Program-made: the position numbers and the translations under genes
NCBI GenBank assembly: GCA_963555755.3
Contig: OY820905.2
Coordinates: forward strand, 3,424,001 to 3,488,000
DNA: 64,000 nt
Direction of reading: 5' to 3'
From: Nitrospirales bacterium
Lineage (GTDB): Bacteria > Nitrospirota > Nitrospiria > Nitrospirales > UBA8639
The notes under the pieces: generated by a model
Databases searched by the model: none
What the model was told of the DNA's origin: nothing
What the model saw: the letters and a program-made list of their open reading frames with translations, nothing else
Part shown: piece after piece, positions 31,260-41,724 of the stretch
Layout of the letters: each line of letters starts with the position of its first letter
Position numbering within the stretch: the stretch's first letter is position 1

Positions 31260-32468
31260 ATGGCCACTGAATCGTTAGTTGGAACAAAAAATAAAGTAGG
31301 TCAGACCATCACCGACGCATGGGAAATGATGCATAACTCCGAGCGTTCCCCATGTTTTTTCACGGGGAGTGAGGTCATCAAAGAAGCTATTCGACGAGCA
31401 AATGTCGATGTAATGATTGCCTATCCGATTACCCCGCAAAGCGAAGCGGCGGCCTTAATCGGAGAATTGTTTGCCGAAGGGTATATCGGAGATTACTTCC
31501 GAGGGGAACATGAGTTCGCGGTGATGTCGCAATGTGCGGGTGCGGCCTTTGGTGGCGCTCGAGTCTTTACGACGACCGCTGGTCCGGGAACCATGCGTGC
31601 CATGGAAAACTTCCCGATGTGGTCTGGAGCACGGCTCCCTATTCAGATGATTGTGACCTGCCGCGGTATTAATTCACCCCTCTCTATTCAACCAGACACC
31701 TTAGAAATCTCATATCTCTTAAACACTGGCATGCTGGTGTGGCATGCTGAAACGGCTCAAGATTTCTATGATTGGATTTTGAAAGGGTACATGGTTTCGG
31801 AAGAGCCGGATGTTCATTTGCCGCTGGCGCTCTGTTGTGATGGGTTCTTTGTAACTCATACCAAAGATATGGTGAATCTGACTCCCGCCGAAATGTGTCT
31901 CCCTCCGTATGATCCGTACCGGTCTCCCGTTCCGTGCATGGATATGGAATGTCCTCCCGTTCGGATGATGCGAGACCCATTTGTGATGAAGAGCAATTAC
32001 ATTAGCTATGCCACCCATGCGAGCTGGCAACAGGAAGTATGGGCTGCTATCGAGCGTTCGAGAAAGCACACCATCCGATGGCTGGATGGGCTTGTTGAAG
32101 TCGAAAACCCGAATGCGGAAATACTCATTGTAGCTTCAGGGACCGCTGTTTCTCAGGGACGGGAAGCCATATCACTTTTGGAAGAAGATGGCATTGATGT
32201 GGGACTCGTAAAAATTAAAGTACTGCGCCCATGGCCAGAAGATGAAATTCGGGAAGCCACGAAAAATGCTAAACACATCATTGTGCCGGAGTTTAACGTT
32301 ACTGGTTGGTTAGCGAGAGAAATCAGAGCGACGATCCCCAATACCGAAAGAGTGTATGCCGGACCGCATGTCTGTGGTGGCATGACCCTGCCGCCGGAAA
32401 TTATTGCGGCTGATATCAAAAAAGTTATCGGTATTAAGACTGCTGCGTTGGTTGGGCGGGGAAGTTGA
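31260..32468 (+). CDS. 2-oxoacid:ferredoxin oxidoreductase, alpha subunit
   Basis: AYPITPQSE, FTTTAGPG, DGFFVTH. Confidence 0.93.
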   Translation: MATESLVGTKNKVGQTITDAWEMMHNSERSPCFFTGSEVIKEAIRRANVDVMIAYPITPQSEAAALIGELFAEGYIGDYFRGEHEFAVMSQCAGAAFGGARVFTTTAGPGTMRAMENFPMWSGARLPIQMIVTCRGINSPLSIQPDTLEISYLLNTGMLVWHAETAQDFYDWILKGYMVSEEPDVHLPLALCCDGFFVTHTKDMVNLTPAEMCLPPYDPYRSPVPCMDMECPPVRMMRDPFVMKSNYISYATHASWQQEVWAAIERSRKHTIRWLDGLVEVENPNAEILIVASGTAVSQGREAISLLEEDGIDVGLVKIKVLRPWPEDEIREATKNAKHIIVPEFNVTGWLAREIRATIPNTERVYAGPHVCGGMTLPPEIIAADIKKVIGIKTAALVGRGS

Positions 32469-32518
32469 AAGAAATTAACATTACAAATGGAGAGAAGATA
32501 ATTATAGGAGGCCGCTAA

Positions 32519-33424
32519 ATGAGTAAAGAACGAATAAAAATAGCTCCGGAAATGTATGACATCATGCCGCCGGAATATCAGGACTTAGTTAACAAAGCCA
32601 CGTATGGGAAAGAATCTCGAGGGTGGAAGGATATTGGTACTTCCAAAGAATTGATTGAAGAACATTCGTTATGTGCAGGGTGTCCGGAGTCAATGGCCTT
32701 TCGGTACATTTTAGCATCCCTCCCTGCTCCCGAAGATACCGTGATGGTGGGTTCGACAGGCTGTACCAGTCTAGTTTTCCCCCACATCGCCATTCATAAT
32801 ATTCACTCTCTCTTTGGAAACCAAAACGCGATTGCTTCCGGACTCAAGCGAGCGTTGACTGTGCGGTTTCCTGGGCAGGTCAAAGATGTCGTGGTGTTGG
32901 CAGGGGATGGCGCAACGGTCGATATTGGACTCGATATGACCTTACAAGCGTGGTTCCGCCAAGAAAAGTTCACCACCATTTGTTTTGATAATGAACTCTA
33001 CGCCAATACCGGCGGCCAAGAAAGCGGATTGATGCAAAAAGGGTTTGTGGCAAAGATGGCTCCCGTGGGAAAGAACTTCGAAAAAGTTCGACTTCCTGAA
33101 ATTGCGAGAGAATCCGGCTGTCATTACATCGTGAATTGTACGGTCAGCAAACCAAACCTTGTGGAAAAAGTGATTAAAAACGCGATCTATGTAGCTCGCG
33201 AAATTGGGCCGACCTATTTGCAGCTGTATACTCCCTGCATTCTTGAAATTGGAAAAAACAGCATGGAAGGCCTTCAAGAAATGCGGGACTCGGAAAAACC
33301 CACCGAACGCTTTGCGTACAGAGAATATATCAGTGATCAGGCAAAAGAATTGTTGACCGAAATGGCCGCAAAAGAAAAAGAAAGAAAAGCTGCTGCCAAA
33401 AAGCAACTGGCAGGAAAAGCCTAA
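32519..33424 (+). CDS. 2-oxoacid:ferredoxin oxidoreductase, beta subunit (TPP-binding)
   Basis: LCAGC, GSTGC, AGDG...DNELYANTGGQ. Confidence 0.93.
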   Translation: MSKERIKIAPEMYDIMPPEYQDLVNKATYGKESRGWKDIGTSKELIEEHSLCAGCPESMAFRYILASLPAPEDTVMVGSTGCTSLVFPHIAIHNIHSLFGNQNAIASGLKRALTVRFPGQVKDVVVLAGDGATVDIGLDMTLQAWFRQEKFTTICFDNELYANTGGQESGLMQKGFVAKMAPVGKNFEKVRLPEIARESGCHYIVNCTVSKPNLVEKVIKNAIYVAREIGPTYLQLYTPCILEIGKNSMEGLQEMRDSEKPTERFAYREYISDQAKELLTEMAAKEKERKAAAKKQLAGKA

Positions 33425-33453
33425 CCAGCCAAGGTTGGTCAAGGAGGAACGTA

Positions 33454-34152
33454 ATGATCAAAAAGAGAATCAATATTCGAATGTCAGGCCTTGGAGGGCA
33501 AGGTGCGGTCACAGCAGCTCATGTGATGGCGATGGCGGCTTCTCGCGATGGGAAATTTTCGATCTCCAATCCATTTTTTGGCGCTGAAAAGCGGATGGCC
33601 CCGGCAGAAAGTTATTGCCGAATTGGGATCAACAAAATTTTTGACCGTGGAGAGTTGGTCTATCCTGATGTGATTGAAGTGTTTCACCCGCAAGTCATTA
33701 CATTGGGTAAAAGTTACACGATGCCATTTTATTCAGGCATCAAAGAAGGAGGACTCGTCATCATCAACTCGGACATGCCTCTTCTTACGGATGAAGATGT
33801 GAAGCGGTTGAAGGATTTAGACGTGGCGGTGTTTTACATTGCCGGGACTCAGGTTGCGTTAAAAGTTGCGGGTACCGAGCTTTCCACGAACATGACCATG
33901 ATTGGGTCGGTCGCCGGGATTACGAAATGTGTCTCTTTGAAGGGACTCGAGGGGGCTCTTCAGGAGAGGTTCGGCAAAAAGTTTGTGGCTTCTGGTGGTA
34001 CTGCTACCTTGGATGAAGCCATCAAAAAGAAATTCGCTAAAAAAGAAATGCTGTTAAAGAAAAATATGGATGCTATAATTGCTGCGTACGACATGGCGTC
34101 TGAATGGGCCGAAAAGAATAATTACGAACTAGCCGTCGCCGCCGCGGCATAA
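33454..34152 (+). CDS. 2-oxoacid:ferredoxin oxidoreductase, gamma subunit
   Basis: IRMSGLGGQGAVTA, FFGAEKR. Confidence 0.93.
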   Translation: MIKKRINIRMSGLGGQGAVTAAHVMAMAASRDGKFSISNPFFGAEKRMAPAESYCRIGINKIFDRGELVYPDVIEVFHPQVITLGKSYTMPFYSGIKEGGLVIINSDMPLLTDEDVKRLKDLDVAVFYIAGTQVALKVAGTELSTNMTMIGSVAGITKCVSLKGLEGALQERFGKKFVASGGTATLDEAIKKKFAKKEMLLKKNMDAIIAAYDMASEWAEKNNYELAVAAAA

Positions 34153-34177
34153 AGAAATAGGGAAAAGGTAGTTATCA

Positions 34178-34456
34178 ATGTATAACGTAGCGCTTGTGAC
34201 TGGTGAAAAGTGTGTGGCTAAAAAAGGATGCCGATTGTGTATCATGTATTGCCCAGAGGCGAATACCTTGGATCTCGACGTCGAAAAGATGATTGCCATG
34301 GTGATCATTAACCGGTGTAAGGGATGTGAGTTGTGCATGGTCGTGTGTGATGCGGCCAAACACGAAGCCATTACCATGGTGGCTGTCAACGCCGATGGAA
34401 CATTAACGAGTTCGGCTGGGGAGGCCGCTGAGTTAGGGCAAGCCTATTCAAATTAA
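34178..34456 (+). CDS. 2-oxoacid:ferredoxin oxidoreductase, epsilon subunit (2[4Fe-4S] ferredoxin-like)
   Basis: C.....CRLC...CP and CKGCELC...C motifs. Confidence 0.9.
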   Translation: MYNVALVTGEKCVAKKGCRLCIMYCPEANTLDLDVEKMIAMVIINRCKGCELCMVVCDAAKHEAITMVAVNADGTLTSSAGEAAELGQAYSN

Positions 34457-34832: not shown

Positions 34833-34871
34833 TAAACGTGATACACTCTTTTTAGGAAAAATGCTGGCTTA

Positions 34872-35050
34872 GGACCTGAGAGAAAATAACTTGGACGTCT
34901 CGCATCCCATCTTTGGGCCACCTTTGAACGGGCCTCAATCGAAACACCTTCAACATAGCTGTGCTAGGCCTCGGGTTTTCCTCAATCGTTCCGTCCAAAT
35001 CCGACCCAAATCTTGGCCCGATATTGTCCAAGTTATTTTCTCTCAGGTCC
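34872..35050. mobile_element. MITE-like element, family D (179 bp)
   Basis: 25-bp perfect TIR GGACCTGAGAGAAAATAACTTGGAC with TTA/TTA flanks. Confidence 0.9.
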
Positions 35051-35186
35051 TTAGCGTTTTTTTTGGTATTGATCAAAAGAACTCGCCAGTATATGATTTG
35101 AATGGCTAGCATTTAACCGCAATACACCGACTCCTTTTTTCACAGTTGTGTTCCTCGGTAGCTCAGTTGGTAGAGCGGTCGGCTGT

Positions 35187-35743
35187 AAGGAGACGTGGCC
35201 TGGTGGCAGAAAGGAGAAAATACGCTGATCGTAGAGAATATCTGATCAATGCCGTCTGAAAACGTCGCAAGGAAATTCGCCAAAAAGTAATACTCCATTT
35301 TGGCGGACGTTGTCAGCGGTGTGATTATGATCGGTGTATAGAAACATTGGAGTGCCATCATCTTGAGTCCTCAGAGAAAGATTTTGGAATTTCTAGCAAA
35401 GGGTATACTCGAAGCTGGAACCAAATCCTGAAGGAACTTGAAAAATGTGTGCTCCTGTGTGCCAATTGCCATCGAGAGGTTCACGCCGGATTGCAGCTTC
35501 CACAGGAAACTGTGGTTGAAAAATCGGGTGAATTCAGGGAAGCCTTCCCCGGGTTCGTGACGAACTCGGAATGGGAACCCTGAGCGAAGCCTGCCGAAGG
35601 GTCTCGTGTAGGCAGGAACGTGCAGAGACTAGAGGCTGAGGAACCCAACCCAATAAGGCCTCACAAGCGCCCGACACCCTCCCCTGATTGTTCAGGCGGG
35701 TGATGAGATAGTCCGAGCCCGGTAGAAATGCTGGGGGTACTCG
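35187..35743 (+). ncRNA. Group I self-splicing intron (557 nt, IA-like) at tRNA position 35/36
   Basis: P1 GGCTGT/GTGGCC with U.G at the 5' splice site, P3 TCGGGTG/CGCCCGA, P4 TCAGGG/CCCTGA, R GCAGAGACTAG, S GAGATAGTCC, GAAA-capped P9, terminal G. Confidence 0.93.
35203..35583 (+). pseudogene. Intron-encoded HNH-type endonuclease with in-frame TGA at codon 19
   Basis: GTG 10 nt after AAGGAG. MAERRKYADRREYLINAV*KRRKEIR...GGRCQRC..CIETLECHH...KCVLLCANCHREVH is a zinc-binding HNH signature. Confidence 0.85.
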
Positions 35744-35789
35744 TAACCGACTGGTCGCAAGTTCGAGTCTTGCCCGAGGAGCCAATTTA

Positions 35790-35822
35790 AAAAGGCCATG
35801 AGATAATTTCTCATGGCCTTTT
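35790..35822. terminator. Bidirectional terminator between tRNA-Asn and fdx
   Basis: AAAAGGCCATGAGA / TCTCATGGCCTTTT perfect stem. Confidence 0.85.
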
Positions 35823-35860: not shown

Positions 35861-36277
35861 TCAGTGACCTTCTTTTACCAAATTTTTATTCCACTCTGGA
35901 ATTTCTACGACAAGGTTTTTGGACCCATCCGGAATGCACTGGCAAGCCAATCGAGATTGCAGCGTGAGGGCCGGAGCTTCGTCCAATTGGTCTAACTCGT
36001 CATCTGTGGCTTCGTTACAGGTCTCCAGTCCTTCCTTTACAATAACGTGACAGGTTGAACAAGCGCATACCCCTCCGCACGCATGTTCCACATCCAGACC
36101 TGCTGCTCCCATGGCAATATCCAGAATACTCCCAGGTTGGCCGGTTGGGCCATAGGGAATTTTACTTGGATCAACCTCGACTACCACATTTTCTCCTGGT
36201 GTTTTGATCGTGACGGTGAATGGTTGTGTCGCGGCTTTTGCTTCAATTTGCTCTATATAAGGATTGCTCCCACCCAT
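35861..36277 (-). CDS. fdx: ISC-type [2Fe-2S] ferredoxin
   Basis: HACGGVCACSTCH...SRLACQ. ATG 36277 follows AAGGAG. Confidence 0.92.
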   Translation of the reverse strand: MGGSNPYIEQIEAKAATQPFTVTIKTPGENVVVEVDPSKIPYGPTGQPGSILDIAMGAAGLDVEHACGGVCACSTCHVIVKEGLETCNEATDDELDQLDEAPALTLQSRLACQCIPDGSKNLVVEIPEWNKNLVKEGH

Positions 36278-36388
36278 CTTGTTCTCCTTGTGTCGTATAA
36301 AAAATTTATACGTATTTATAAATTTTATGTTACTTTTCAATACATTATGTTAAGTTGTGTTAAGTTTCTGCAATCGCCGACTGATGTT

Positions 36389-36462
36389 ATCTCCGACTAA
36401 ATTACTCTTGACTAGACGAGAATGTCAATGGTAGTATTTGTTCCGATGGTTTTGGTCGGAGA
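36389..36462. promoter_or_regulatory. isc promoter with candidate Rrf2/IscR operator half-sites
   Basis: TTGACT-N18-TAGTAT (36408-36437) flanked by the inverted pair TCTCCGACTAAA / TTTGGTCGGAGA. Confidence 0.5.
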
Positions 36463-36502
36463 CTTTATCAATCTGTGATTGGAATGAAGCGAAGAGGTTC
36501 CT

Positions 36503-36982
36503 GTGCTGAAGTTCTCCAAAAAGGCAGATTACGCGTTATTGGCCCTCCAATATATGGCCTCGGTTCATGGCAGTGGGGAACTACAACCGCGTGTGGTGAA
36601 TACCAAGGAAATTGCGGAAGAGCATTTCATGCCAGTTGAGCTGCTCGCGAAAGTTCTGCAAACCTTGGCACGGCATCAAATCATTGAAAGTCACCATAAT
36701 GGGCCCAAGGGTGGGTATGTGTTAGGCCGAGAGCCCAAAGACATTTCCGTCGCCCAAGTATTAGAGGCCATCGAAGGGCCCTTGGGCATAACAGATTGTT
36801 ACCACGAAAAAGATCAGTCGTGGTGTGACCAATTGGAACGTTGTAATATCCGAACACCATTGCTCAAAATTCAAGACAGCATTTATAAATTGCTTAACAG
36901 CATGTCGATTGAGGACATGCTGATGGATGAATCGCCTTTAATCATCGTCGAATCTTTAAAGCTAGAAGGAGTGAACTCATGA
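36503..36982 (+). CDS. Rrf2 family regulator (IscR-like)
   Basis: [21 protein letters not shown], three Cys, heads the isc operon. Confidence 0.9.
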
Positions 36983-38193
36983 AGTTACCCATTTATATGG
37001 ACAACCATTCGACCACGCCCTGCGATCCTCGCGTGGTGGAGGCGATGCTCCCGTATTTCACCGAAAAGTTTGGCAATTCAGCGAGTCGCAACCATTCGTT
37101 TGGTTGGGAGGCTGAAGAAGGGGTAGACACCGCACGAAAGCAAATTGCCAAACTGATCAATGCGGATTCCAAGGAAATTGTCTTTACCAGTGGTGCGACG
37201 GAATCCAATAACTTGGCGTTGAAAGGTGTGGCGGAGATGTATCGCGAAAAAGGTGATCACATCATCACGAGCTCGACGGAACATCGTGCGGTGATCGACC
37301 CGGCCAAATCGCTTGAGAAGAAAGGTGTCAAGGTCACCTATCTTTCGGTGGATAAGACCGGCACGGTGAATCCTGATGATGTGCGCAATGCCATCACGGA
37401 TAAAACCATTTTGATTTCGATTATGTTAGCGAATAACGAAATTGGCACCATCAATCCCATTAAAGAAATTGGGAAGATTGCAAAAGAAAAAGGCGTGCTG
37501 TTCCACTGTGATGCGACTCAAGGCGTCGGAAAAATCCCGGTTAATGTCCAAGAGCTAGGCGTGGATCTGATGTCTTTTTCGGCGCATAAGATTTATGGGC
37601 CGAAAGGCATTGGCGCATTATACGTTCGGCGTAGGGCCCCTCGAGTCCGCTTGGCGCCGATGCAGGATGGCGGTGGTCATGAACGGGGCATGCGGTCAGG
37701 GACACTTCCTGTTCCATTGATTGTTGGTTTTGGAAAAGCCGCGGAGTTGTGCGAACAAGAAATGGCAACAGAGTCCGTTCGAATGATGGCTCTGCGCGAT
37801 CGACTGAAGGCCGGCATTATGGGGGCGATGGAAGAAGTCTATCTGAATGGGCATCCTACCGAACGGCTGCCCGGGAATCTGAATATTAGTTTTGCCTACG
37901 TCGAAGGCGAGGCGTTGCTGATGGGGGTGAAGGAAATTGCCCTTTCTTCTGGCTCGGCGTGTACTTCTGCGACACTCGAACCGTCTTATGTGCTTCGGGC
38001 GCTTGGCGTGGGTTCGGATTTAGCGCATTCGTCCATTCGGTTTGGGATCGGCCGATTTACCACAGAGGAAGAAGTGGACTATACGATTGATCGGATGCTT
38101 AAGGCTGTGAATCATTTGCGAGAGATGTCGCCATTGTATGAAATGGCCAAAGAAGGGATCGATCTCAGTACAGTCGAATGGGCGGCTCACTGA
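36979..38193 (+). CDS. iscS: Cysteine desulfurase
   Basis: [29 protein letters not shown]-terminal EWAAH. Confidence 0.97.
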
Positions 38194-38261
38194 ATTAGAG
38201 AAACAGGAAATATAGCCAATCGTGCTTTGCATAATTGTAAAAATCTAAGGAGGGTAGAATC

Positions 38262-38681
38262 ATGGCATACAGCGAAAAAGTGATTGACCATTACAACAAT
38301 CCTCGCAATATGGGGAGCTTTAAAAAGGACGAGGACGGTGTGGGGACAGGCATTGTTGGTGCTCCTGAGTGCGGCGATGTGATGAAGCTTCAGATTAAAG
38401 TCGAAAATGACACCATCGTCGATGCCAAGTTCAAAACCTTTGGATGCGGGTCGGCCATTGCCAGCTCAAGTTTGGCGACAGAGTGGTTGAAAGGCAAAAC
38501 CGTAGAGGAAGCCGGGCAGATTAAAAATACGGAAATTGTGGAAGAACTCAATCTTCCCCCAGTGAAAATTCACTGTTCAGTGTTAGCGGAAGATGCGATT
38601 AAAGGGGCATTGAATGATTATAAGAAGAAAGCGGAGCTGAAGTCACAGGAAGAAGCAACGGCTGCCTCAGCTAGTTCCTAA
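38262..38681 (+). CDS. iscU: Fe-S cluster scaffold
   Basis: YSEKVIDHY.NPRN.G, APECGD, FGCGSA, LPPVKIHC. Confidence 0.97.
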   Translation: MAYSEKVIDHYNNPRNMGSFKKDEDGVGTGIVGAPECGDVMKLQIKVENDTIVDAKFKTFGCGSAIASSSLATEWLKGKTVEEAGQIKNTEIVEELNLPPVKIHCSVLAEDAIKGALNDYKKKAELKSQEEATAASASS

Positions 38682-38712
38682 ATTGGTGAAGTTGGATTAA
38701 GGGAGAAGGAAT

Positions 38713-39066
38713 ATGGAGACGACACAAACGACAGAAACCCCCCTGGTGACCTTGACGGATGCCGCGGTTGAAGAAGTGAAGCGGTTGATGGATGTGCAAG
38801 ATCTCACCGAAGGTGGTCTTCGCTTGGGCGTCAAAGGTGGTGGATGTTCCGGTCTCAGTTACACAGTTAACTTTGATGACAAGATTGGTGAATTTGATAC
38901 GATTTGCGAAAAGGATGGTGTGAAAATCATCGTGGACGCAAAAAGCGCCATTTATCTTGAAGGCATGCAACTCGATTATCAAAAGGATCTTGTGAGTGGG
39001 GGATTCAAATTTAGTAATCCCAATGCCACCAAAACCTGTGGATGTGGAGAATCCTTCTCCGCGTAA
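38713..39066 (+). CDS. iscA: A-type Fe-S carrier
   Basis: GGCSGLSY, CGCGESF, position in the isc operon. Confidence 0.93.
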   Translation: METTQTTETPLVTLTDAAVEEVKRLMDVQDLTEGGLRLGVKGGGCSGLSYTVNFDDKIGEFDTICEKDGVKIIVDAKSAIYLEGMQLDYQKDLVSGGFKFSNPNATKTCGCGESFSA

Positions 39067-39151
39067 AGACCCACGATAGTGGGGAAATGAAAATGATTCG
39101 AATTGGCGGGCATGGTGCAGTTGAACCATGCCCGTTGTGCGAGTGCCGACG

Positions 39152-39877
39152 ATGAGTACACAACCGACATCAGCTGATCGTGTGTCCCGCGAATTGCCCA
39201 TGGCGCGAAATATGTGCTGGCATTGCCAGTCCGAGGTCTCCGGAGAATACTTTTGCGGTCGATGTGTGAAGATTCAACCGCTTTCGAAAGAGTTGGACTA
39301 TTTTACCTGCATGAACCTTCCTCGCCTGCTTACCATCGATAAAAAATATTTGGAGGACACATTCTATTCGTTGAGTCGTACCTTTCATCCGGATTTCTAT
39401 GCCAATAAGGATGAAGGGGAAAAAGCCGTCAGTCTCGGGAATTCGGCACTTCTCAATACAGCGTATCGCACCCTCAAGGATCCGATCCAGCGGGCAGAAT
39501 ATCTGATTCGATTAGAAGCAGGTTCAGTCAAGGATATTCGTTCTGCCCCACCTGCTGATTTATTTGATGAAATTCTGGAGCTCCAGGAGGATTTAGAGGA
39601 GTTTCGTTCGCTATCCGGTGAGACCGATTCAGAGCGTGGACGAGAATTACGAAACAAGCTTCACACGGATCGAGAGACCCTTGAGGTCCGCCAGGAGCAA
39701 CTCAAGGCTGAACTGTTTGGGAAGTTTCAGGAATGGGATGAGCTTCAGGGCTCATCGGACGGCTCAGCAGACACTCGTGGTAAGAAAAATGACGTGATCA
39801 AAGAAATGCAGGAAATACTTTCTAATCGTACGTATGTACGAAATATCGTGAATGATCTCATCGCGGCCACGAGTTAA
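39152..39877 (+). CDS. hscB: Co-chaperone HscB with N-terminal CxxC-CxxC motif
   Basis: CWHC..CGRC, HPD J-domain, N.AY.TL.DP..RA.Y. Confidence 0.92.
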   Translation: MSTQPTSADRVSRELPMARNMCWHCQSEVSGEYFCGRCVKIQPLSKELDYFTCMNLPRLLTIDKKYLEDTFYSLSRTFHPDFYANKDEGEKAVSLGNSALLNTAYRTLKDPIQRAEYLIRLEAGSVKDIRSAPPADLFDEILELQEDLEEFRSLSGETDSERGRELRNKLHTDRETLEVRQEQLKAELFGKFQEWDELQGSSDGSADTRGKKNDVIKEMQEILSNRTYVRNIVNDLIAATS

Positions 39878-39900
39878 ACCTCAATATTGACAGGAAATTA

Positions 39901-41724
39901 ATGGCAAGAATAGTTGGAATAGACCTTGGCACCACCAATTCATTGGTCGCGTATATGGATGGAGAGGTTCCTCGTGTTATTCAAGGCAAACATGATGAGG
40001 CAAAAGTCCCGTCGATTGTTGGCCTGACGGATAACGGCATTATGGTTGGAGAACCAGCCAAGGAGCATTTGGTTCGGGATCCCTCGAGGACGATTTATTC
40101 CGTCAAGCGGTTTATGGGCAAGTCTTTGGCGGATGTGTCCGAGGAGTTGAAATATTTCCCCTACAGCCTTCAAGAAAAAAACGGGGTGATTCGCATTCAG
40201 GTCGGAGACAAAACGTACTCGCCCCCTCAAGTCTCTGCCATGATTTTGAAGGAACTAAAACTGCGCGCTGAAGCCCACCTTCGAGAAGACATTACCAAAG
40301 TTGTCATTACGGTTCCCGCCTATTTCAATGATGCCCAACGGCAAGCCACGAAAGATGCCGGCCTCATCGCCGGGCTGGAAGTGCTGCGAATCATCAACGA
40401 ACCGACGGCGGCATCCTTGGCTTATGGGTTGCAAAAGAAAACACAGGGCATAATCGCGGTCTACGATCTTGGTGGTGGGACCTTTGATATTTCTCTGCTT
40501 AAACTCAAAGATGGCATCTTTGAAGTACTGGCGACGAATGGCAATACCCATCTAGGGGGAGATGATTTGGATCGGCGACTGGTCGAAACTGTCATGAAGG
40601 ACCTCGACGCCAATCATGGGGTGAAGGTGGAAGACCTCCCCGAACTCATGCAAACGGTTCGGTTAGAATCCGAGCGGGTGAAGATTCGGTTATCCAATGA
40701 GGACAAGACGTCAATGTCCATTCCTCTTCCCGATGAGAGGGGAACGTACACCCGTGAATGGTCTCGAGAGGAATTGGAGTCTCTCACCGTGGACTTAGTG
40801 CGACAAACACTCGCTCCCTGTCGATTGGCGATGCAGGATGCCGAGTTGCAACTCAATGACATAGATGAAGTGGTGTTGGTTGGGGGAAGCACGCGCATGC
40901 CGTTGGTTCGTCAGTTAGTTGAAGAACTGTTTGGCCAGACGCCTCATAGCGAGCTGAACCCTGATGAAGTGGTGGCGCTTGGGGCTGCGGTCCAGGCCGG
41001 TATTCTCGCGGGTGATAACAAAGACATGCTATTGCTCGATGTCACCCCGTTGTCCTTGGGCATTGAAACCATGGGTGGGGTGATGAGCACGTTGATTCGA
41101 CGGAATACCACCATCCCGACGAGCGCCAAGGAAATGTTTACCACCTATGTCGATGGACAAACCTCCGTGGATATTCATATTTTGCAAGGCGAACGTGAGC
41201 TGGTGCAAGACAATCGGAGTCTTGCTCGATTTCAACTCAAAGTTCCACCTCTGCCTGCGGCGGTGCCACGGGTAGAAGTGACGTTCCTGATTGATGCCAA
41301 TGGCATTCTCAATGTCAACGCCGCTGATATCCGAACCGGAGAATCGCAAACTGTGCAAGTGAAACCCTCGCATGGTCTCACCGATGATGAAGTCGAAGGC
41401 ATGATCCGAGAATCATTCCAATTTGCCGCTCAGGACATCAAAGCCCGTCAGGTGATTGAAGCCAGGACTGAGGCGGGTGCCATCCTCGTTGCCACGGAAA
41501 AAGCCTTGAAGCGAGGGACCGATCTCATTACATTCGAAGAGGTCCAAGCGATTCACCAGGTTCTTGAAGATCTTCGGAGAGTCAAAGATCAAGATGATCA
41601 TCGCGTGATTCGGGCAAAGATTTCTGATGTCGAAAACGTCACTCATCATTTGGCTGAAGCTTTAATGGATGCCACGCTCAAAGAAGCGCTCGAAAACAAA
41701 AAACTCTCTGAAGTGACGGATTGA
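39901..41724 (+). CDS. hscA: Fe-S assembly Hsp70 chaperone
   Basis: GIDLGTTNS, DLGGGTFD, VKPSHGLTD, isc operon context. Confidence 0.92.
   Translation: MARIVGIDLGTTNSLVAYMDGEVPRVIQGKHDEAKVPSIVGLTDNGIMVGEPAKEHLVRDPSRTIYSVKRFMGKSLADVSEELKYFPYSLQEKNGVIRIQVGDKTYSPPQVSAMILKELKLRAEAHLREDITKVVITVPAYFNDAQRQATKDAGLIAGLEVLRIINEPTAASLAYGLQKKTQGIIAVYDLGGGTFDISLLKLKDGIFEVLATNGNTHLGGDDLDRRLVETVMKDLDANHGVKVEDLPELMQTVRLESERVKIRLSNEDKTSMSIPLPDERGTYTREWSREELESLTVDLVRQTLAPCRLAMQDAELQLNDIDEVVLVGGSTRMPLVRQLVEELFGQTPHSELNPDEVVALGAAVQAGILAGDNKDMLLLDVTPLSLGIETMGGVMSTLIRRNTTIPTSAKEMFTTYVDGQTSVDIHILQGERELVQDNRSLARFQLKVPPLPAAVPRVEVTFLIDANGILNVNAADIRTGESQTVQVKPSHGLTDDEVEGMIRESFQFAAQDIKARQVIEARTEAGAILVATEKALKRGTDLITFEEVQAIHQVLEDLRRVKDQDDHRVIRAKISDVENVTHHLAEALMDATLKEALENKKLSEVTD

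What the first reader, a model, noticed from the sequence alone, without database searches (positions are those of the whole stretch)
35187..35583. Intron-borne HNH endonuclease with RBS in the P1 loop, 3' end overlapping the ribozyme core, and one premature TGA
Seen: AAGGAG (35187-35192) forms most of the P1 loop. GTG 35203 opens a 126-codon CxxC...HH...CANCH..H frame broken only by TGA at 35257-35259. The last ~27 codons run through P2-P4 and stop in the P4 3' strand. Inference: a homing endonuclease targeting intron-less tRNA-Asn anticodon loops, recently inactivated (e.g. CGA>TGA). Its translation and ribozyme folding would compete.
Basis: partly seen in the sequence, partly recalled or inferred. 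Interest (0 to 1): 0.7.

Follow-up and report, generated by a model that had tools for sequence, protein, structure and literature searches.

The report
Dead homing nuclease in tRNA intron
The bacterium's only asparagine tRNA gene is split by a group I intron whose HNH nuclease gene carries a real early stop codon, an ordinary stage of decay, while comparison with relatives shows a long-range RNA helix that likely hides the nuclease's ribosome-binding site when the intron folds for splicing.

Summary
The genome's only tRNA-Asn(GUU) holds a 557-nt group I intron. The TGA at codon 19 is real: contigs from four studies carry it. The nearest intact relative has CGA there. Sibling strains carry further lesions, and none of 25 intron-bearing genomes of the family has a clearly working gene. 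The true guide sequence is GCAGCU at 35493-35498 (GCAGC in 81 of 81), so the ORF lies inside a 306-nt L1 loop and runs into P1-P4; the tail length varies freely. New here: the leader holding the Shine-Dalgarno covaries with the Val-His-Ala codons just before the guide sequence (26 vs 9 independent pairs, p 0.006), and this helix survives ORF deletion. It likely closes the loop and hides the RBS. In this allele ribosomes stop about 230 nt before the core, so little competition remains. Phage relatives stand beside tRNA-Asn genes, which supports that target; cleavage is untested. This scan already reported the same intron family in other genomes. The class appears catalogued, and the P1-ORF layout has a precedent.

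The parts
35069..35097 (+). sigma70-like promoter candidate (TTGATC-17-TATGAT, 9 of 12)
   Evidence: 0.8 such sites expected in shuffles, so weak
35152..35186 (+). 5' exon of the genome's only tRNA-Asn(GUU), ending in anticodon bases G34 U35
35187..35743 (+). 557-nt group I intron between anticodon positions 35 and 36; omega-G at 35743
35187..35192 (+). Shine-Dalgarno-like AAGGAG; -9.4 kcal/mol with the genome's own 16S 3' end (including GUGG 35195-35198)
35181..35186 (+). P1 5' strand (exon end, U at -1)
35192..35200 (+). 5' strand of the predicted long-range P1-extension helix (SD end and spacer; core 35194-35198)
35203..35583 (+). HNH endonuclease pseudogene, 126 codons, GTG start; C37/C40, H52/H53, C86/C89, H90, H94 all retained
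35257..35259 (+). premature TGA at codon 19; CGA in the nearest intact relative
35479..35487 (+). 3' strand of the P1-extension helix = codons V93 H94 A95 (7 of 9 pairs in this copy)
35493..35498 (+). internal guide sequence GCAGCU (P1 3' strand), inside codons L97-L99
35500..35515 (+). P2 hairpin with GAAA loop
35524..35583 (+). P3 5' strand 35524-35530, P4 5' 35534-35539, P5, and P4 3' 35578-35583, which holds the ORF's stop
35584..35743 (+). P6, P6a, P7 (35625-35631 with 35709-35714), P7.1 (35632-35636 with 35658-35662), P3 3' (35668-35674), P8, P9.0, P9
35744..35784 (+). 3' exon, starts with anticodon base U36, ends in encoded CCA
35790..35822 (+). terminator-like hairpin (14 pairs)

Best explanation
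This is a group I intron in the genome's only tRNA-Asn gene that likely still self-splices, carrying in its large P1 loop an HNH gene, likely once a homing endonuclease for intron-less tRNA-Asn genes, that is broken by a CGA-to-TGA change and is decaying. Mechanism. (1, shown) The intron is 35187-35743, the core helices are intact, and P1 uses the guide sequence 306 nt downstream. (2, inferred) It must splice, because no other tRNA-Asn exists in a 99.4% complete genome. (3, inferred) In intact relatives the small zinc-finger HNH protein cuts or nicks the uninterrupted tRNA-Asn gene, and repair copies the intron in. (4, predicted, supported by covariation) The RBS is open while L1 is being transcribed; once codons V93-A95 and the guide sequence appear, they pair with the RBS spacer and the exon end, close the loop, set up the 5' splice site and shut out ribosomes that would otherwise run through the guide sequence and P2-P4. 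(5, shown for the sequence) In this allele translation ends at codon 19, so no nuclease is expected and the core is spared; relatives show the later stages, namely frameshift, internal deletion and collapse of L1 to just the helix.
For: Sole tRNA-Asn: none among 46 uninterrupted tRNAs, one when introns are allowed; the joined exons give tRNA-Asn(gtt). Core: 98.0% of 1400 cells paired, 27 of 56 pairs with two-sided changes, slid controls 31-41% (25 chosen sequences). Guide sequence: GCAGC in 81 of 81; 4 or more pairs in 80 of 80 there against 24 of 80 near the 5' end; 22 relatives with 8-97 nt between splice site and GCAGC. TGA real; CGA in L191; dN/dS 0.058; second lesions in strains. Family: 24 of 114 relatives carry a close intron, 22 of them ORF-deleted, 1 frameshifted, 1 with His90>Arg. 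Helix: own-partner duplex -11.9 against -9.1 kcal/mol (100 distinct); His94 third base matches its partner in 80 of 97, control codons about half; 26 vs 9 edge-disjoint tree pairs, p 0.006, eight control windows p 0.34-1; kept as a hairpin after ORF loss; predicted RBS accessibility 0.56 to 0.22 here and falling in 91 of 104. Target: tRNA-Asn anticodon arm within 350 nt in 67 of 80 viral loci, 11 of 19 clusters, against 13 of 80 at 700-1050 nt.
Against: No spliced RNA was seen: RNA runs were contigs and none showed this genome's exon junction. No cleavage data exist. Pfam HNH is below cut-off (13.3 against 21.4 bits); fold matches are weak (best Z 5.1, Foldseek E 0.2, pLDDT 66.7); the middle Asn of H-N-H is an invariant Lys81. 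The single-position tree test of the helix was underpowered (median p 0.125; V3 and A1 not informative), and I formed the helix idea on the same loci that I tested. The helix is weak in this copy and in L191 (ranks 0.41 and 0.59 among partners), absent in L105, only 2 pairs in L103, and mostly absent in the 29 long-leader introns. Its survival after ORF loss shows a structural role, not a translational one.
Confidence: 0.8

Rival explanations
1. The long-range helix is purely structural: it brings the two P1 strands together across the large loop, and its overlap with the RBS is a side effect of crowding in a 16-nt leader.
For: It is kept after the ORF is gone in the 18 genus-g2 introns and in L102 and L104; the leader is so short that any helix there touches the RBS.
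Against: The predicted SD overlaps the helix strand by 2 nt or more in 70 of 97 short-leader introns with an SD. Long-leader introns have an equally large loop yet mostly lack the helix (-6.4 against -13.6 kcal/mol), and 14 of 29 have a -10-like box in the leader against 4 of 104, as if they express the gene another way. RBS-hiding structure protects splicing in T4 td (PMC3073962, section 8).
Confidence: 0.35
2. The TGA is read through, recoded or bypassed (re-initiation at ATG 35249 with a frameshift in the A run at 35282-35286), so an active or shortened nuclease is still made.
For: All metal-binding residues are retained; codon 19 is also a stop in two other lineages (L210 TGA, L028 TAA); P0003 is a deposited 111-aa product that starts at the equivalent ATG after a +A; ARAGORN gives a possible tRNA-Sec in the genome.
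Against: Position 19 is Gln, Arg or Lys in most relatives and never Cys or Trp in 80 loci; the stops differ (TAA and TGA) and arise by one C>T from CAA or CGA; strains carry a second stop at codon 91; four replacements are specific to this copy, including conserved Gly41>Asp; the SD before ATG 35249 is weak (-2.9 kcal/mol); the shortened form lacks the conserved basic N-terminal helix.
Confidence: 0.05
3. One reading: a short P1 hairpin (GGCUGU with GUGGCC 35195-35200) with AAGGAG as its loop.
For: Six pairs can be drawn, with the U-G wobble at the splice site.
Against: -2.6 against -7.1 kcal/mol for the downstream guide sequence; pair probability 0.0 at three transcript lengths; not conserved (24 of 80 reach 4 pairs); ORF-less relatives keep GCAGC, not this segment's pairing with the exon.
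Confidence: 0.03
4. The HNH family does not target tRNA-Asn DNA; it is a passenger, or cuts elsewhere in tRNA clusters.
For: No biochemistry; 8 of 19 viral clusters have no tRNA-Asn arm within 350 nt, and two clusters supply 57 of the 80 loci; other anticodon arms also occur nearby (TAC 45, GTA 38 of 80, by a loose pattern).
Against: 78 of 80 genome loci lie in the same split tRNA across many phyla; purifying selection; patchy presence, with 3 of 3 scored same-genus genomes uninterrupted, fits homing.
Confidence: 0.1

Closest known systems
[quoted passage not shown] 2025 (bioRxiv 10.1101/2025.07.03.662931)
   Same: Intron in the anticodon loop with U at -1 and omega-G. Williams (whole text read) lists 17 new tRNA settings and notes that introns above about 400 bp may hold whole or partial genes.
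   Different: The text I read does not name Asn: Table 1 and Fig. 3 are images and the supplements are closed. The label 'Asn.4Ug' comes from earlier scan notes, not from my reading. Of Nakagawa I saw only the title in a reference list (not held); that it covers tRNA-Asn and tRNA-Asp at 35/36 with splicing assays is recalled. Neither source, as seen, describes this HNH or its leader helix.
Synechocystis PCC 6803 tRNA-fMet group I intron with its PD-(D/E)XK endonuclease (the name I-Ssp6803I is recalled)
   Same: tRNA intron with the ORF inserted in P1 and overlapping P1/P2 by 61 nt (PMC3073962 Table 1, passage read).
   Different: Different tRNA and different nuclease family; here HNH, and the overlap runs on to P4 (93 nt from codon L97).
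Phage T4 td intron and I-TevI
   Same: The ORF's 3' end overlaps core helices ('core creep', variable and likely dispensable tail); an RNA structure hides the RBS, and opening it impairs splicing (PMC3073962 sections 7 and 8 read).
   Different: I-TevI is GIY-YIG in the P6 loop with a local hairpin; here the predicted occluding strand lies about 290 nt downstream, is coding sequence, and extends P1.
Small zinc-finger HNH endonucleases (PHROG 2255 and 3106; McrA-like; GVE2 and Gme HNH)
   Same: CxxC...HH...CxxCH...H layout; profile matches to E 2e-25; fold neighbours.
   Different: Lys replaces the middle Asn; basic N-terminal helix; tied to tRNA-Asn genes; this copy is a pseudogene.

Membership tests
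Group I intron | Core P3, P4, P6, P7 with the G-binding pair in P7 | tested here: met
   Rfam 69.7 bits against 50; P7 invariant in 25 of 25, 98% of cells paired overall
Group I intron | U-G pair at the 5' splice site in P1, and omega-G | tested here: met
   U35186 with G35493; G35743
Group I intron | Exon ligation restores the host RNA | tested here: met
   Joined exons read as tRNA-Asn(gtt) by ARAGORN; in silico only
Group I intron | Self-splicing activity | not testable with these tools
   No spliced junction of this genome in RNA contigs; inferred from its being the only tRNA-Asn
Subgroup IA (criterion recalled) | Extra helix P7.1 between P7 and P3 | tested here: met
   5 of 5 pairs with two-sided changes; no subgroup models were run
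HNH endonuclease | Zinc-binding CxxC pairs and catalytic or metal-binding His residues | tested here: met
   C37 C40 H52 H53 C86 C89 H90 H94 conserved at 90% or more in 40 sequences; roles assigned from recalled HNH chemistry
HNH endonuclease | Middle Asn of H-N-H | tested here: not met
   Invariant Lys81 where McrA has Asn
HNH endonuclease | Profile or fold match | tested here: inconclusive
   PHROGs HNH strong; Pfam below cut-off here, 39 of 40 members at E 0.1 or better; fold Z 5.1 at best
Functional intron-encoded homing endonuclease | Intact reading frame | tested here: not met
   TGA at codon 19 in contigs of four studies
Functional intron-encoded homing endonuclease | Cuts the intron-less allele at the insertion site | not testable with these tools
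   Only association evidence

The most novel reading that the evidence does not exclude
An uncharacterised HNH homing family, found both inside tRNA-Asn introns of many phyla and free-standing beside phage tRNA-Asn genes, is controlled by a splice-or-translate switch built from its own coding sequence: the codons around its last His fold back about 290 nt onto the RBS, so the gene can be translated only in the seconds before the loop is finished, while a long-leader branch drops the helix and uses an internal promoter.
Probability: 0.45. Interest if true: 0.62.

Novelty: new variant of a known kind. Interest (0 to 1): 0.37.

Why it matters
This copy is an ordinary dead homing gene. The family is more useful: it gives a compact, testable case of how a mobile nuclease is expressed from inside an essential, normally untranslated tRNA precursor without blocking splicing, and the host family shows the decay steps side by side (empty site, stop codon, frameshift, deletions, bare helix). 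It also explains why standard annotation finds no tRNA-Asn in such genomes.

Tried and rejected
Plain ARAGORN on the window found nothing; the intron option was needed. A blastn and tblastn of the genome found no second copy of the intron or ORF. An exact-pattern scan of metagenomes for alleles at codon 19 found 0; a protein-based scan found L191. PDB sequence search gave only McrA at E 0.08; NCBIfam gave nothing. I guessed that viral hits reaching residues 113-115 lay in introns: only 1 of 80 is in a split tRNA-Asn and Rfam found no intron in 14 tested. ARAGORN missed many phage tRNA-Asn genes (29 of 80 direct neighbours), so I recounted by anticodon arm. My first hand-set P6, P7, P7.1 and P8 were out of register and were corrected. 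Rows dropped: 48 of 163 loci and 16 of 163 (no 5' splice site found), then duplicates (100 and 133 distinct); L078. The intron-core tree does not place this copy with support, so I name no donor. Joints 35186-35744 in X3, X9 and X13 come from other organisms' uninterrupted tRNAs or are of unknown origin and are not evidence of splicing. A CGA allele may segregate in X16 (one unlisted T>C and a contig that starts at 35258), but the row was not shown. Nine answered paper searches found no paper on an HNH in tRNA-Asn introns, and none on a long-range RBS helix in L1; the library lacks most subscription papers and the Nakagawa preprint.

Full report
Observation. The sequence shows AAGGAG at 35187-35192, GTG at 35203 and a 126-codon frame broken once by TGA at 35257-35259. 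It lies in a 557-nt intron (35187-35743) that splits the anticodon of tRNA-Asn(GUU) between positions 35 and 36. Rfam scores the core as a group I intron (69.7 bits, cut-off 50). The genome (4.6 Mb, 2 contigs, 99.44% complete) has no tRNA-Asn among 46 uninterrupted tRNAs and one when introns are allowed; the joined exons read as tRNA-Asn. Splicing is therefore inferred, not seen. On a 25-sequence alignment 98.0% of 1400 cells pair in the named core structure, with 27 of 56 pairs changing on both sides, including all five pairs of a P7.1 helix.

Is the stop real? Only assembled contigs were served. Contigs spanning 35257 with no difference came from X1 (depth 24), X3 (139) and X15 (105), and X9's contig has four differences, all elsewhere: four studies, one of which may be the source. 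The nearest relative with DNA, L191, has an open frame and CGA at codon 19; the nearest protein, P0002 (87%), has Arg. In 80 genome loci the codon is a sense codon in 79, mostly Arg (27) or Gln (19), and TAA in one. Against L191, codons 6-95 give dS 0.63, dN 0.037, ratio 0.058, so the gene worked for most of the time since that split. It is not freshly broken, though: four replacements are specific to this copy (Q27, F33, D41, T48), and related strains add a second stop at codon 91 (X13, X16) or an extra A after 35281 (X16, X17). P0003 is the called product of such a frameshifted allele.

GCAGC follows the last His codon in 81 of 81 sequences, directly before a covarying P2 hairpin. It gives four or more pairs with the exon end in 80 of 80, whereas a partner within 25 nt of the splice site does so in 24 of 80. 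In this copy the energies are -7.1 and -2.6 kcal/mol, and folding the precursor gives probabilities near 1 for the downstream P1 and 0.0 for the short one. Relatives that lost the ORF keep only 8-97 nt between the splice site and GCAGC (22 loci). So the ORF sits in a 306-nt L1 and runs through the guide sequence, P2, P3 5', P4 5', P5 and into P4 3'. The tail is most likely core creep: across 133 introns the stop falls 0-89 codons after the guide sequence, and residues 99-126 have pLDDT below 50. The same layout is on record for the Synechocystis tRNA-fMet intron, with the ORF in P1 and 61 nt of overlap with P1/P2 (PMC3073962; Table 1 passage and sections 7 and 8 read).

The protein. It keeps C37, C40, H52, H53, C86, C89, H90 and H94. 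PHROGs HNH families match to E 2e-25; Pfam HNH is below cut-off; fold searches rank HNH domains first but weakly (best Z 5.1); the middle Asn is replaced by an invariant Lys. 1669 proteins match. Of the best 80 of 350 genome loci, 78 lie in a split tRNA gene; ARAGORN named 52 Asn, and the other 26 show the same CTGT / TAAY junction when read directly. In the best 80 of 117 viral loci the gene is free-standing in 79, with a tRNA-Asn anticodon arm within 350 nt in 67, against 13 at 700-1050 nt; by cluster it is 11 of 19, and two clusters hold 57 loci. This points to the tRNA-Asn gene as the target. Cleavage is untested.

Decay in the host family. Of 114 relatives, 24 carry a close intron; the three same-genus genomes with a match are uninterrupted, and three less complete ones gave no match. 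Two of the 24 have a full-length ORF: one frameshifted, one with His90>Arg. The other 22 have deletions. No clearly working copy was found in the family, while 116 of 133 distinct introns from all sources pass a simple intactness test, in a set chosen by protein similarity. The host is likely a marine Nitrospirales-type bacterium (inferred from the closest named loci and the habitats).

A long-range helix over the RBS. The first 22 intron bases pair better with their own 20 bases before the guide sequence than with those of other loci (-11.9 against -9.1 kcal/mol, 100 distinct; kin inflate this). The partner is the Val-His-Ala codons. With the register chosen without the tested base, the His third base matches its partner in 80 of 97, while two control codons match about half. 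The single-site tree test was underpowered (median p 0.125), but on edge-disjoint tree pairs own partners beat swapped ones 26 to 9 (40 informative of 52 pairs, p 0.006), and eight control windows gave p 0.34-1. After ORF deletion the two strands remain as a local hairpin in the 18 genus-g2 introns (one clade) and in L102 and L104, but not in L105 and barely in L103. The predicted SD overlaps the helix strand in 70 of 97. Predicted accessibility of the start region falls from 0.56 to 0.22 in this copy once the partner is made, and falls in 91 of 104 short-leader introns against 15 of 29 long-leader ones. Long-leader introns mostly lack the helix, and 14 of 29 have a -10-like box in the leader against 4 of 104. 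In this copy the helix is modest (7 of 9 pairs). I formed the idea on the same loci that I tested, and all of this is prediction from sequence.

How it likely works. In intact relatives the RBS is open while L1 is transcribed and then closes as P1 and its extension form, which limits ribosomes that would unfold the guide sequence and core, as shown for I-TevI with a local hairpin (PMC3073962 section 8). The nuclease would cut the uninterrupted tRNA-Asn gene and spread the intron. A purely structural role for the helix remains a serious rival.

Novelty. Williams (bioRxiv 10.1101/2020.01.27.920355, whole text read; table and figures are images; supplements closed, and these may bear on this) added 17 tRNA intron settings; I could not see Asn named myself. 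A 2025 preprint on a new insertion site in Patescibacteria tRNA genes was seen by title only; its content is recalled. Earlier notes of this scan report the same family in other genomes, and none matched a word search for the helix. My paper searches found no description of this HNH or of the helix. Verdict: real; an ordinary pseudogene in a known kind of element, with one modestly new, testable family feature. Interest 0.37.

Noticed in passing
window 34867-35055: A 189-bp element with 30-bp terminal inverted repeats sits just upstream of the tRNA promoter; 236 blast hits in the genome, 133 of 150 nt or more, with TTA or TAA flanks in the 12 commonest flank pairs among 72 copies. It looks like an abundant MITE; no transposase was sought.
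   Followed up: partly
run X15, contig 12, on window 35148-35559: A 5267-nt contig is identical over the tRNA 5' exon and intron, TGA included, but has a different sequence upstream of 35148; it may be a strain with another flank or a transfer of the dead intron.
   Followed up: no
L060, L062-L064, L070, L072, L074, L075, L080 and other long-leader loci: The intron leader holds a TATAAT- or TATACT-like box about 10-20 nt before the start codon, suggesting an internal promoter whose -35 region would lie in the tRNA 5' exon.
   Followed up: partly
L135:1360-1440, L160:1365-1440 and related viral loci: Phage tRNA-Asn genes with an unusual D arm that ARAGORN and Rfam both miss lie just upstream of the free-standing HNH gene.
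   Followed up: partly
L111:823-1464: One viral contig carries the complete tRNA-Asn intron with its HNH gene, a possible vehicle for spread.
   Followed up: no
L210, L028 and window 35257: Codon 19 has become a stop in three lineages and the Trp72 codon in two (L243, L267); probably because these codons are one change from a stop.
   Followed up: partly
G000:C1:1606972-1607151: ARAGORN with the intron option gives a tRNA-SeC(tca) call with an 84-nt insert; not examined.
   Followed up: no
G000:C1:2530195-2530287 and 4554637-4554728: Two tRNA-Ser(gct) genes are called in the genome.
   Followed up: no
window 31260-34456 and 35861-41724: The tRNA lies between a 2-oxoacid:ferredoxin oxidoreductase cluster and, downstream, a 2Fe-2S ferredoxin and an Isc-type iron-sulfur cluster operon (Isc names partly from recalled sequence features).
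   Followed up: partly
runs X9, X13, X16 (joint 35187-35492): Marine sediment contigs hold a related ORF-less intron with only about 10 nt in L1.
   Followed up: no
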